Source: a phage. From it: DNA of 64,000 nucleotides. Made by a program: the position numbers. The first letter of the stretch is position 1. The number at the start of each line of letters is the position of its first letter. The stretch is from the sequence record PZ674596.1. One strand, given 5' to 3'. This document shows positions 59,501 to 62,500 of this stretch, piece by piece.

Positions 59501-62500
59501 ACATATAGGTGAAAACGGAACAGAAATCCCCCAATTTTCTGTTGGGGACATCTTTGATGTACATGGAGAAGAGTTTGGCGAGCCTCACATCACTATGCCT
59601 AGTGGCCATGTTTATTGGCTAAGAGCTATGGAGAAATATGGTGATAAATGGGAAGTGTTATGAGGGATGCGAAGTTATGACTAAATTTGGAAAGCTGGAA
59701 GCTCATTTGCTAACTCGTAACTACCGCCATGATGTGCATCCATATAGACAGTGGATCGATGAAAGCGAAGGAGTTGTTACATTCCCTCTATACAGGTTTG
59801 ATGGGATGTTGGCCGGGTATCAGACATACAGACCAGGCGCTCCTAAGCAGCATAGCAATCCGAAGATGGCCCGGTATTTCACACGAGCGCACGGCAGACA
59901 GCTACTATGGGGAACCTATCTTCCTTTAAAAGATGGACCGATATGGATAACTGAGTCGATTTTTAAAAGTGCAGCAGTGCACAACGCGGGCGGAAATTCG
60001 TGGGCGCTGTTAGGTTCGACTTTCTCAGCAGGATTACGTCGTCAACTGGCAATGCTGCCGTATGACTTTCGCGTAATAGGTGACAATGATGCGGCTGGTG
60101 AATCACTTGTGAAGTCTTTCGGAAAAGGTTTTGTGGCCCCGGATCTTGACGAGCTACAACCAAATGAAGTGTCTCATTTGATTTTTAGCCATAGCCAATA
60201 AGCATCCCTTCTCCATTAAGGCCACTAGTTGTGGCCTTAAACAATTTGTTTTCTACCTTTTCTTGTTCGAGAAAATAACGTTCATTTGTCTGGTGCTATG
60301 TACCGATCAGTTGCACTGAGTGAGCTTCTTTCATGTATACTGTATAAATGAACAGTATTGAGGGCAAAACGCTATGGGCTTCCCTTCTCCTGCGGCGGAT
60401 TATGCTGAGAGCCGTATTTCTCTTGATCAGCAGATAATTAGACATCCTTCAGCGACCTACTTCATGAGAGCGGCTGACAGCCATCATCGTGAGGGAATAT
60501 TGCAGGGCGCATTGCTGGTGGTCGATTCCTCACTTACCCCGGTTGATGGTTCTCTGCTTGTATGCGCTCTGGATGGGGAATATCGCGTAAAAAGATACCG
60601 GAAGTATCCACGTCAGCATCTGGAGGATTTAAGAACTGGTAAGAAGGAAGCATTGCCAAAGGATGACGATGGATGCACGGGCAGCAATGCCGTGTTTGGT
60701 GTGATCACTCACATTATCAACGACGCAAGAAGTGGCGAGTTTGATGATTGTCCCGTGATGTAGGAGAACTGATTAGGCGGTGCATTGCACCGCCTTTTTA
60801 TCACACTGCGCGGAATGCGATTTCGCCAGGTATTACTTCACCTTGCCAATACATTTGGGCAGCAACGCGATCTGCGAGGTCACGATAAATAGCTGTAAAT
60901 TCGCTATCTGGACGACTAATAACGGTTGGTGTTCCGTTATCCAGATCTTCACGAAGAGAGATATGAAGTGGCATTTGGCCTAACAACTGCGTGTTGTATT
61001 TCTCGGCCAGTTTCTGTGCGCCACCGGTGCCAAAAATTGGCTCGTGATGACCGCAGTTACTGCAAATATGCACACTCATGTTTTCAACGATACCCAGTAC
61101 CGGCACTTCGACTTTTTCGAACATCACAATGCCTTTCTTCGCATCGATCAGCGCGATGTCTTGCGGCGTAGTTACCACAACCGCACCAGTTACAGGAATG
61201 TTCTGCGCCAGCGTCAACTGAATATCACCAGTGCCCGGCGGCATATCGAGAACAAGATAGTCCAGATCAGGCCACAATGTTTCCTGCAACATCTGCATTA
61301 ACGCCTTGCTCGCCATCGGTCCACGCCACACCATTGCATTGTCGTCGGTGACCAGATAACCAATAGAGTTGGTTGCCAGGCCATGAGACATGATAGGTGC
61401 CATGTGAGTACCGTCAGGTGAGGTTGGACGTTGGTTTTCCGCGCCCAGCATGGTTGGAATTGATGGACCATAGATATCGGCATCCAAAATACCAACTTTC
61501 GCACCTTCAGCAGCCAACGCCAGTGCCAGGTTTACCGCCGTGGAGGATTTACCCACGCCGCCCTTGCCTGAGCTGACGGCGATAATGTTCTTAACGCCAT
61601 TAATGCCTGGTTGGTTTTTGACGCGCTTAAGCGTGGCAATGTTGTACGACAGCTTCCAGTCAATAGCCTTTGCGCCAGTGATACGGAGCAGATCACCACT
61701 ACATTGCTCTTTCAGGTCTTCAAAAGGCTTATTCCACACGAAAGGCATGATTAGTTCGACATGCAGTGTGTCATCCATCAACGCAACATGGTGTAACGCT
61801 TTAAGCGTAGTCAGGTTGTGTTTCAGGGTTGGGTGCTGAAAATTAGCCAGCGTACCGGCTACCATTGCTCTCAGGGCATCCGGCGATTTGGACTCGCTCA
61901 TCCCGTCTCCTTTATTTTAATTTGCGCAATTGTCGCCTTGTAGTGTACTCCAGCTACGACATTTAATCATTTATGAGAAATGCTGTTATCACATGGCAGA
62001 CATAAGGCCATTTTGTTACTATCAAGCCCCTTTTCACTACAAAGAAGTAATGCCTACTATGACCCAAGTCGCGAAGAAAATTCTGGTGACGTGCGCGCTG
62101 CCGTACGCTAACGGCTCAATCCACCTCGGCCATATGCTGGAGCACATCCAGGCTGATGTCTGGGTTCGTTACCAGCGAATGCGCGGCCACGAGGTTAATT
62201 TCATCTGTGCCGACGATGCCCACGGTACGCCGATCATGTTGAAAGCACAGCAGCTTGGTATCACACCGGAGCAGATGATTGGCGAAATGAGTCAGGAACA
62301 TCAGACTGATTTCGCAGGCTTTAACATCAGCTATGACAACTATCACTCGACGCACAGCGAAGAGAACCGTCAGTTGTCCGAGCTTATCTATACTCGCCTG
62401 AAAGAGAACGGTTTTATTAAAAACCGCACCATCTCTCAGCTGTACGACCCGGAAAAAGGCATGTTCCTGCCGGACCGTTTTGTAAAAGGCACATGCCCGA

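What the first reader, a model, noticed from the sequence alone, without database searches (positions are those of the whole stretch)
60338..60763. SOS-box-controlled UmuD'-only gene at the element boundary
A LexA box (TACTGTATAAATGAACAGTA) sits 16 bp upstream of a 129-aa protein that begins where processed UmuD' begins, and no umuC follows. P1 carries a comparable humD gene (from memory). Its position next to the junction leaves open whether it belongs to the element or to the host.
Basis: partly seen in the sequence, partly recalled or inferred. Interest (0 to 1): 0.5.

Follow-up and report, generated by a model that had tools for sequence, protein, structure and literature searches.

The report
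Phage-plasmid humD gene with LexA box
This is an ordinary, well-conserved copy of humD, the known SOS-regulated phage gene for a ready-made UmuD' subunit of the host's error-prone DNA polymerase V. It sits inside an SSU5-like phage-plasmid, not at a boundary with the host chromosome.

Summary
A full LexA box (TACTGTATAAATGAACAGTA, 60338-60357) lies 16 nt before a 129-aa ORF (60374-60763). The ORF starts M-GFPSPAADY, where processed UmuD' starts, keeps the Ser/Lys pair (S36/K73 = UmuD S60/K97), and has no umuC after it.

It is not new. The protein scores 219.8 bits (cut-off 120) on the NCBIfam HumD equivalog. It is 91.5% identical to P1 HumD and 100% identical to a CDS of phage Cyrano. The box equals the LexA site annotated in P1.

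All 80 close viral relatives carry a box 16-19 nt upstream. Including more distant genomic relatives, there are 23 sequence variants that keep the arms. dN/dS against P1 is 0.048.

The "element boundary" reading is wrong. The window is an E. coli SSU5-like phage-plasmid of about 108-111 kb. The neighbouring apbC and metG are cargo of that plasmid: they are 84% identical to the chromosomal copies in all 5,426 E. coli genomes, and at least 95% identical to plasmid and phage copies.

The most likely mechanism is inferred from the P1 orthologue. LexA represses the gene. After DNA damage, HumD dimers pair with host UmuC for translesion synthesis without waiting for UmuD cleavage. Interest is low.

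The parts
60216..60240 (+). Terminator-like hairpin after the upstream toprim/primase-fragment gene. It marks the 5' limit of the humD unit.
   Evidence: 10-pair stem, TTAAGGCCAC...GTGGCCTTAA. It was not tested for function.
60311..60316 (+). Putative -35 hexamer TTGCAC (inferred).
   Evidence: Read from the sequence. The hexamer is conserved in P1 although the surrounding bases differ. The consensus promoter scan did not call a promoter here.
60334..60341 (+). Putative -10 region: TGTATA with a 17-nt spacer, or TATACT with a 19-nt spacer. It overlaps the left arm of the LexA box (inferred).
   Evidence: Sequence. Not called by the scan, so the assignment is weak.
60338..60357 (.). LexA (SOS) box TACTGTATAAATGAACAGTA.
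   Evidence: One match in the window against 0 of 100 shuffles. It is identical to the annotated LexA binding site of P1. A box is present 16-19 nt before humD in 80 of 80 viral loci. Across viral and genomic loci together there are 23 variants with conserved arms.
60360..60364 (+). Shine-Dalgarno sequence GAGGG, 9 nt before the ATG.
   Evidence: Sequence.
60374..60763 (+). humD: a 129-aa UmuD'-like protein of the HumD family, with an S24 peptidase C-terminal domain and no N-terminal arm or cleavage site.
   Evidence: Pfam PF00717 1.6e-9. NCBIfam NF051876 219.8 bits against cut-off 120, covering 1-129 of 129. PHROG 811 'UmuD-like' 2.7e-54. PDB UmuD' 6.7e-23. 91.5% identical to P1 HumD. dN/dS 0.048 against P1.
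60775..60800 (.). Intrinsic terminator hairpin plus T-run, lying between the convergent humD and apbC genes.
   Evidence: 9-pair stem with 7 GC pairs, followed by TTTTT.: -18.6 kcal/mol, z = -5.28, 0 of 200 shuffles as stable.

Best explanation
The locus is a self-contained, monocistronic humD cassette carried as cargo by an E. coli SSU5-like phage-plasmid.

In undamaged cells, host LexA binds the box that overlaps the promoter's -10 and start region and keeps the gene off. DNA damage makes RecA* inactivate LexA, and HumD is then made.

HumD is a pre-truncated UmuD'. It starts at the residue that RecA*-mediated cleavage exposes in UmuD, so it needs no activation step. It dimerises and binds host-encoded UmuC and RecA filaments, giving a Pol V-like translesion polymerase (HumD2-UmuC). 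This complex lets damaged host and element DNA be replicated, mutagenically, earlier in the SOS response than the host's own slowly processed UmuD would allow.

**Shown here:** family membership, the architecture, the LexA-box match and its conservation, the absence of umuC, and purifying selection.

**Inferred from the P1 orthologue:** LexA binding in this element, dimerisation, partnership with UmuC and the mutagenesis phenotype. These rest on McLenigan et al. 1999, J Bacteriol 181:7005. That paper is listed as a reference in PMC4713147 and PMC11541004, but its content is recalled from memory because the paper could not be opened.
For: - **Family.** NCBIfam HumD equivalog at 219.8 bits against a cut-off of 120, full length. 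118 of 129 residues identical to P1 HumD and 43% identical to UmuD residues 25-139. UmuD' structures match at E = 6.7e-23 starting at Gly25.
- **LexA box.** It is unique in the window against 0 of 100 shuffles and identical to P1's annotated LexA site, although synonymous sites in the ORF have diverged (dS 0.87).
- **Box conservation.** 80 of 80 viral loci keep a box 16-19 nt upstream. Phage Cyrano has an unrelated upstream sequence but its own perfect box. Positions that were not imposed by the search (the outer TA...TA and the inner AT) carry 1.4-1.8 bits, against less than 1 bit at most positions of the upstream flank.
- **Selection.** dN/dS is 0.048.
- **Stand-alone unit.** Terminators lie on both sides.
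- **No umuC.** None in the window or in the whole related plasmid. Most homologues of 60-80% identity also lack a long downstream ORF.
- **Literature.** humD is described as a LexA-regulated SOS gene of P1-like phage-plasmids in PMC9603915.
Against: - Nothing here shows LexA binding, SOS induction or interaction with UmuC for this copy.
- The consensus sigma-70 scan did not call a promoter over the box, so the promoter assignment is weak.
- From memory of McLenigan et al. 1999, P1 HumD is poorly expressed from its native context and complemented well only at high copy number. Its physiological importance is therefore uncertain.
- The element has its own RecA and DnaE, so partners other than host UmuC cannot be excluded.
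Confidence: 0.8

Rival explanations
1. The gene lies at a prophage-chromosome junction and may be a host chromosomal gene. This is the question the first reader left open.
For: The next genes, apbC and metG, are housekeeping-type genes found on every E. coli chromosome.
Against: - The same humD-apbC-metG arrangement lies inside circular plasmids of about 108-111 kb and in the 108-kb phage Cyrano, with element genes on the far side.
- The window's apbC-metG is about 84% identical to the chromosomal copy in 5,426 of 5,426 genomes, but at least 95% identical to about 215 records, nearly all plasmids (223 plasmid places in all).
- The rest of the window is 96.8% identical to Cyrano and 78% identical to SSU5.
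Confidence: 0.01
2. HumD keeps an intact Ser-Lys pair because it acts as a protease in trans. It might cleave host UmuD, or another S24 substrate, to speed SOS mutagenesis or interfere with host regulators, rather than (or in addition to) simply replacing UmuD'.
For: - S36 and K73 are retained in 80 of 80 close relatives, and Lys is present in 120 of 123 family members, even though self-cleavage is impossible.
- From memory, UmuD' can cleave UmuD intermolecularly (McDonald et al. 1998, PNAS).
Against: - The conserved GDSM motif around the serine is degraded to ADSH.
- 43 of 123 family members have Thr and 2 have Ala at the nucleophile position. More distant members appear to have Met or Pro there (those pairwise alignments are less certain). 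This argues against a selected catalytic role.
Confidence: 0.07
3. HumD works mainly with the element's own replication and recombination proteins (phage-plasmid DnaE-type polymerase and RecA homologue). It would act as a damage-responsive replisome modulator of the element, not through host UmuC.
For: - The window encodes a Pol III alpha homologue (19063..22581), a RecA homologue (25558..26631), a gp32-like SSB, a helicase and a primase.
- From memory, UmuD and UmuD' are reported to bind Pol III subunits.
Against: - The same humD (91-93% aa identity) sits in P1-like phage-plasmids. In the stretches examined there, their gene content is different (hot, lxr, phd-doc). Whether P1-like elements carry a dnaE or recA was not checked.
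- N15-like and lambdoid phages also carry HumD homologues. The gene therefore moves independently of any such partner.
- From memory, P1 HumD binds E. coli UmuC and RecA filaments.
Confidence: 0.07
4. The ORF is a decaying remnant of a umuDC operon (5'-truncated umuD, lost umuC), and the LexA box is a leftover without present function.
For: It has no N-terminal arm and no partner gene.
Against: - dN/dS is 0.048 over dS 0.87 against P1.
- 111 of 123 homologues start at exactly the same M-G-F-P.
- The box is maintained in 80 of 80 loci despite turnover of its central bases and of the DNA upstream.
Confidence: 0.02

Closest known systems
Bacteriophage P1 HumD (AAQ14073; humD with its LexA site, AF234172 87545-87973)
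   Same: - 129 aa, with 118 of 129 residues identical.
- The same M-GFPSPAADY start.
- An identical 20-bp LexA box.
- No umuC partner.
- DNA homology covers just the box plus the ORF (window about 60327-60762).
   Different: - The host element differs: an SSU5-like phage-plasmid rather than P1.
- The box-to-ATG spacing is 16 nt, against 19 nt in P1.
- Upstream is a co-directional primase-fragment gene, not the divergent lxr.
- Downstream is a convergent apbC, not phd-doc.
E. coli UmuD / UmuD' (Pol V accessory subunit; PDB 1umu, 1i4v, 8gmt)
   Same: - S24 C-terminal domain, 43% identical over 115 residues.
- Ser60 and Lys97 equivalents are present.
- LexA-box control.
   Different: - It lacks residues 1-24 and the Cys24-Gly25 cleavage site, so no RecA*-dependent activation is needed.
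- It is not in an operon with umuC.
- It is below the cut-off of the UmuD NCBIfam model (87 against 110 bits).
- The GDSM motif is changed to ADSH.
- It has a short internal insertion and 12 or more extra C-terminal residues.
HumD homologues of other temperate phages (N15 gp26, phiKO2 gp23, HK639/HK140, BTP1)
   Same: Orphan UmuD'-sized proteins of about 129 aa, 62-71% identical.
   Different: They are more distant. Some chromosomal prophage homologues have no LexA box within 120 nt, and many have Thr instead of the Ser.
Plasmid/ICE UmuD homologues MucA, ImpA, RumA
   Same: Mobile-element-borne, SOS-regulated S24 accessory subunits of Y-family polymerases. This comparison rests on established knowledge and was not tested here.
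   Different: Those are full-length, self-cleaving proteins encoded in operons with their own UmuC homologue (MucB, ImpB, RumB). This one is pre-truncated and has no partner gene.
LexA repressor
   Same: It shares the S24 C-terminal domain at weak similarity (E = 1.4e-3 to PDB 8gms; TIGR00498 27 bits).
   Different: It has no N-terminal DNA-binding domain and no cleavage site, and it is far below the family cut-off of 110.95 bits.

Membership tests
HumD family (NCBIfam NF051876, equivalog) | Full-length match to the family profile above the curated cut-off. | tested here: met
   219.8 bits against a cut-off of 120, covering residues 1-129 of a 129-position profile.
HumD family (NCBIfam NF051876, equivalog) | UmuD'-sized protein that begins at the position equivalent to UmuD Gly25, with no N-terminal arm or Cys-Gly cleavage site. 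| tested here: met
   M1-G2 aligns to UmuD C24-G25. 111 of 123 family sequences have a single residue before that Gly.
HumD family (NCBIfam NF051876, equivalog) | Not in an operon with a umuC homologue. | tested here: met
   A terminator and then a convergent apbC follow the gene. No Y-family polymerase domain is found in the window ORFs, and none is annotated in the whole of p09EL50.
HumD family (NCBIfam NF051876, equivalog) | LexA box in the promoter region (SOS regulon member). | tested here: met
   The sequence match is identical to P1's annotated site and is conserved in 80 of 80 close loci. Actual LexA binding cannot be tested here.
HumD family (NCBIfam NF051876, equivalog) | Functionally substitutes for UmuD': dimerises, binds UmuC and RecA filaments, and restores SOS mutagenesis. 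| not testable with these tools
   Known for P1 HumD only (McLenigan et al. 1999, cited in PMC4713147 reference 78). Inferred here from 91.5% identity.
UmuD, autoproteolytic subunit of Pol V (NCBIfam NF007621) | Profile score above the cut-off, plus the presence of the N-terminal 24 residues and the Cys24-Gly25 self-cleavage site. | tested here: not met
   87 bits against a cut-off of 110. The protein starts at the post-cleavage Gly.
Peptidase S24 (Pfam PF00717) | Domain match and the Ser-Lys catalytic pair. | tested here: met
   37.9 bits against a cut-off of 23.3. S36 and K73 align to UmuD S60 and K97. Catalytic competence was not tested, and the GDSM motif is changed to ADSH.
LexA repressor (TIGR00498) | N-terminal winged-helix DNA-binding domain plus a cleavable linker. 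| tested here: not met
   27.2 bits against a cut-off of 110.95. Only residues 4-78 match, corresponding to the C-terminal domain.

The most novel reading that the evidence does not exclude
The strictly retained Ser36-Lys73 pair in this HumD clade may not be a relic. HumD could act in trans as a protease on host UmuD (or another S24 substrate), or it could team up with the phage-plasmid's own RecA and DnaE homologues. Either way, the element would actively reprogram the timing of host SOS mutagenesis rather than merely supply a spare UmuD'.
Probability: 0.1. Interest if true: 0.5.

Novelty: already known. Interest (0 to 1): 0.1.

Why it matters
The finding matters little as a discovery. humD has been known since the 1990s, has its own curated family model, and this exact protein is already deposited (phage Cyrano and many E. 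coli plasmids).

The useful outcome is the correction. The window has no host junction here, and the housekeeping-looking apbC and metG are phage-plasmid cargo.

Three minor points have some value:
- The LexA box is one of the best phylogenetically footprinted sites one could ask for, with arms fixed and the centre turning over.
- humD appears to be a shared homology patch across which P1-like and SSU5-like phage-plasmids exchange flanking DNA.
- This element also carries ISEcp1-blaCTX-M. An SOS-inducible mutagenesis factor and an ESBL gene therefore travel on one transmissible phage-plasmid.

Tried and rejected
- **Primary papers not held.** I tried to open McLenigan et al. 1999 (PMC94175 and by DOI) and Lobocka et al. 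2004 (PMC523184); neither is held. The functional data on P1 HumD therefore come from memory plus citation lists. A 2026 preprint on an E. coli phage-plasmid and heteroresistance could not be opened either.\n- **Paper searches.** One search timed out. Two papers on SSU5-type phage-plasmids mention neither humD/umuD nor apbC/metG.\n- **Promoter scan.** The consensus scan found no sigma-70 promoter over the box. It called only an intragenic match at 60474-60501, which I ignore. The -35 and -10 given in the parts list are my reading and are weak.\n- **Second LexA site.** I considered the CTGT-N8-ACAG match at 13352-13367, upstream of the tyrosine recombinase, as a second SOS target. The homologous site in p09EL50 has a broken arm (CTGG...). 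Two loose matches in 64 kb are also within chance: 19 of 100 shuffles gave at least two. I leave it as a note only.\n- **Antisense ORF.** The 49-aa ORF at 60296..60445 on the minus strand could in principle be a divergent LexA-controlled gene, like lxr in P1. I rejected this: it has no homology to lxr, it overlaps the humD start, and the upstream DNA is not conserved between elements.\n- **Structure prediction.** I did not run it, because 43% identity to solved UmuD' structures already fixes the fold.

Full report
**1. What is there**

The sequence shows TACTGTATAAATGAACAGTA at 60338-60357, a GAGGG ribosome-binding site at 60360-60364, and an ATG at 60374. That ATG opens a 129-aa ORF ending at 60763.

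The full palindromic pattern TACTGT-N8-ACAGTA occurs once in the 64-kb window and in none of 100 dinucleotide-preserving shuffles. The looser CTGT-N8-ACAG occurs twice, against 0.73 expected.

The unit is bracketed by hairpins:
- A terminator-like hairpin at 60216-60240 follows the upstream gene.
- A strong hairpin plus T-run at 60775-60800 follows the ORF. It folds at -18.6 kcal/mol, z = -5.28.

A convergent apbC gene follows at 60801..61901 on the minus strand. The ORF is therefore a monocistronic cassette.

**2. What the protein is**

The profile and structure matches agree:
- Pfam gives Peptidase_S24 (1.6e-9).
- NCBIfam gives the equivalog 'HumD family' NF051876 at 219.8 bits (cut-off 120), covering all 129 positions.
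- The UmuD model NF007621 (87 bits against 110) and the LexA model (27 bits against 111) are both below their cut-offs.
- PHROG 811 'UmuD-like protein' scores 2.7e-54.
- The best solved structures are UmuD' (1umu, 6.7e-23; 1i4v) and the UmuD chain of 8gmt. Window G2 aligns to UmuD Gly25, the residue exposed by RecA*-mediated cleavage.

In a 123-sequence alignment the window protein shares 118 of 129 residues with P1 HumD and 50 of 115 with UmuD. S36 and K73 fall in the columns of UmuD Ser60 and Lys97.

In that alignment, 111 of the 123 sequences have just one residue (Met) before the Gly. The few longer entries look like miscalled starts.

Against P1 humD, nucleotide identity is 85%, dS is 0.87, dN is 0.042 and dN/dS is 0.048. 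This is a gene under strong purifying selection, not a remnant.

**3. The LexA box is real and selected**

The 20-mer is identical to the feature annotated in the P1 genome as the 'LexA binding site in the regulatory region of lxr and humD'. It is unchanged even though about half of the synonymous sites in the adjacent ORF differ.

Phage Cyrano encodes a 100% identical protein. Its upstream DNA is unrelated, yet it has its own perfect box, TACTGTATGTGTATACAGTA, at the same distance.

In 80 IMG/VR loci encoding HumD at 91% identity or more, all 80 have a CTGT-N8-ACAG box ending 16-19 nt before the ATG.

Collapsing the viral and genomic loci to 42 distinct upstream sequences gives 23 different 20-mers. 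Positions that the search did not impose are well conserved:
- the outer TA...TA carries 1.4-1.8 bits;
- the inner AT carries 1.5-1.8 bits;
- the central bases vary;
- most positions of the upstream flank carry less than 1 bit.

More distant chromosomal homologues (50-72% identity) have a box in only about half of cases.

The promoter itself is only inferred. A TTGCAC hexamer at 60311-60316 is conserved with P1. It is followed after 17 nt by TGTATA, or after 19 nt by TATACT, overlapping the left arm of the box. The generic promoter scan did not call it.

**4. No umuC**

None of the 19 genuine window ORFs of 300 aa or more that were scanned has a Y-family polymerase domain. The remaining ORF of that size is the antisense shadow ORF inside metG. 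None of the 129 annotated features of the near-identical plasmid p09EL50 is a UmuC.

Most HumD homologues of 60-80% identity also lack a long ORF downstream. True umuD homologues at 34-41% identity are followed by ORFs of 400-430 aa. Orphan status is thus typical of the family.

**5. Where it sits: the 'boundary' is not a boundary**

The window region 20001-45000 is 96.8% identical to phage Cyrano and 78% identical to Salmonella phage SSU5.

The segment 59600-61100 (toprim gene, humD, apbC) is 98.3-99.3% identical to at least 17 complete E. coli records of 108-113 kb and 95% identical to one more. All are plasmid-sized, and at least one is a circular plasmid (p09EL50 of O104:H4).

In p09EL50 and Cyrano, apbC and metG are followed by more element genes.

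The window's apbC-metG stretch matches the chromosome of all 5,426 complete E. coli genomes at only about 84%. It matches about 215 records, nearly all plasmids, at 95% or more. Chromosomal homology starts 4-7 nt inside the query, at the 3' end of apbC.

Among phages, the block is found only in the E. coli SSU5-like subgroup (Cyrano, CMS-2020a, PhiR41_1). It was not found in SSU5 itself.

So humD belongs to the element.

**6. Mobility of the cassette**

DNA homology with P1-like phages covers only window positions about 60327-60762, that is, the box plus the ORF.

Across 119 related loci, the downstream neighbour is either apbC (23 loci, SSU5-like) or phd-doc (53 loci, P1-like). The upstream DNA is mosaic. 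Cross-combinations exist:
- lxr upstream with apbC downstream (1 locus);
- the toprim gene upstream with phd-doc downstream (1 locus).

HumD homologues also occur in N15-like and lambdoid phages. PMC9603915 lists the region ending at humD among the highly variable regions of P1-like phage-plasmids and calls humD a LexA-regulated SOS gene.

**7. Mechanism**

The best-supported explanation runs as follows:
- Host LexA represses the cassette.
- SOS induction releases it.
- HumD needs no cleavage. It dimerises and joins host UmuC (with RecA*) to give Pol V-like translesion synthesis.

The genetic and biochemical basis is the work on P1 HumD: complementation of UmuD' functions, dimer formation, and binding to UmuC and to RecA filaments (McLenigan et al. 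1999, J Bacteriol 181:7005). I could verify that paper only as a citation and otherwise recall it from memory. For this copy those steps are inferred from 91.5% identity.

The rivals are listed with their evidence: a host gene at a junction, a trans-acting protease, a partner of the element's own RecA or DnaE, and a decaying remnant. The first and last are effectively excluded.

**8. Verdict**

The feature is already known, so interest is low.

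Noticed in passing
window 60801-61901 (-) and 62059->64000 (+): The phage-plasmid carries full-length apbC (ApbC equivalog, 759 bits) and metG (methionyl-tRNA synthetase, N-terminus [25 protein letters not shown]). They are about 84% nt-identical to the chromosomal pair of every E. coli genome. Among phages they occur only in the E. coli SSU5-like subgroup (Cyrano, CMS-2020a, PhiR41_1). Neither of the two phage-plasmid papers I searched mentions this housekeeping cargo, and its role is unexplained.
   Followed up: partly
window 6201-7463 (+) and 7719-8594 (+): An IS1380-family (ISEcp1-type) transposase lies immediately upstream of a blaCTX-M extended-spectrum beta-lactamase (626.6 bits against a cut-off of 570). 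The pair is inserted in the replication-gene region of the phage-plasmid.
   Followed up: partly
window 13350-13369, upstream of ORF 13396-14499 (+): A second LexA-like box, TACTGTTTACTTATACAGTG, lies 26 nt before a tyrosine recombinase/integrase gene. In p09EL50 the homologous site has a broken arm (TACTGGTTACTTATACAGGT). SOS control of this gene is therefore doubtful.
   Followed up: partly
window 19063-22581, 23256-24284, 25558-26631 (+): The element encodes its own Pol III alpha (DnaE) homologue, a gp32-like SSB and a divergent RecA homologue (153.7 bits, below the RecA equivalog cut-off of 325). It also encodes a helicase, primase, ligase, NrdAB, ThyA and SbcCD-like genes. A phage-plasmid RecA next to an SOS-controlled UmuD' surrogate invites the question of whether the two interact.
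   Followed up: no
loci L046-L125 (IMG/VR), region upstream of humD: humD behaves as a shared homology patch between P1-like and SSU5-like phage-plasmids. The upstream DNA is mosaic. Hybrid arrangements occur: P1 lxr upstream with SSU5-type apbC downstream, and the SSU5-type toprim gene upstream with P1 phd-doc downstream.
   Followed up: partly
HumD family alignment (P0001-P0120; loci L007-L045): The nucleophile column is Ser in 78, Thr in 43 and Ala in 2 of 123 sequences, while Lys is kept in 120 of 123. Members of 50-60% identity seem to have Met or Pro at the Ser position, and about half of the distant homologues lack a LexA box. The low-identity pairwise alignments are uncertain.
   Followed up: partly
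window 59638-60201 (+): The gene just upstream of humD is a 187-aa toprim protein. It matches only the middle part (positions 142-333 of 435) of a PHROG DNA primase family and has no Pfam hit. It looks like a primase fragment or a stand-alone toprim domain, and it is present in only some relatives.
   Followed up: no
window 62116-63627 (-): The 503-aa ORF listed on the minus strand is a shadow ORF antisense to metG, not a gene.
   Followed up: yes
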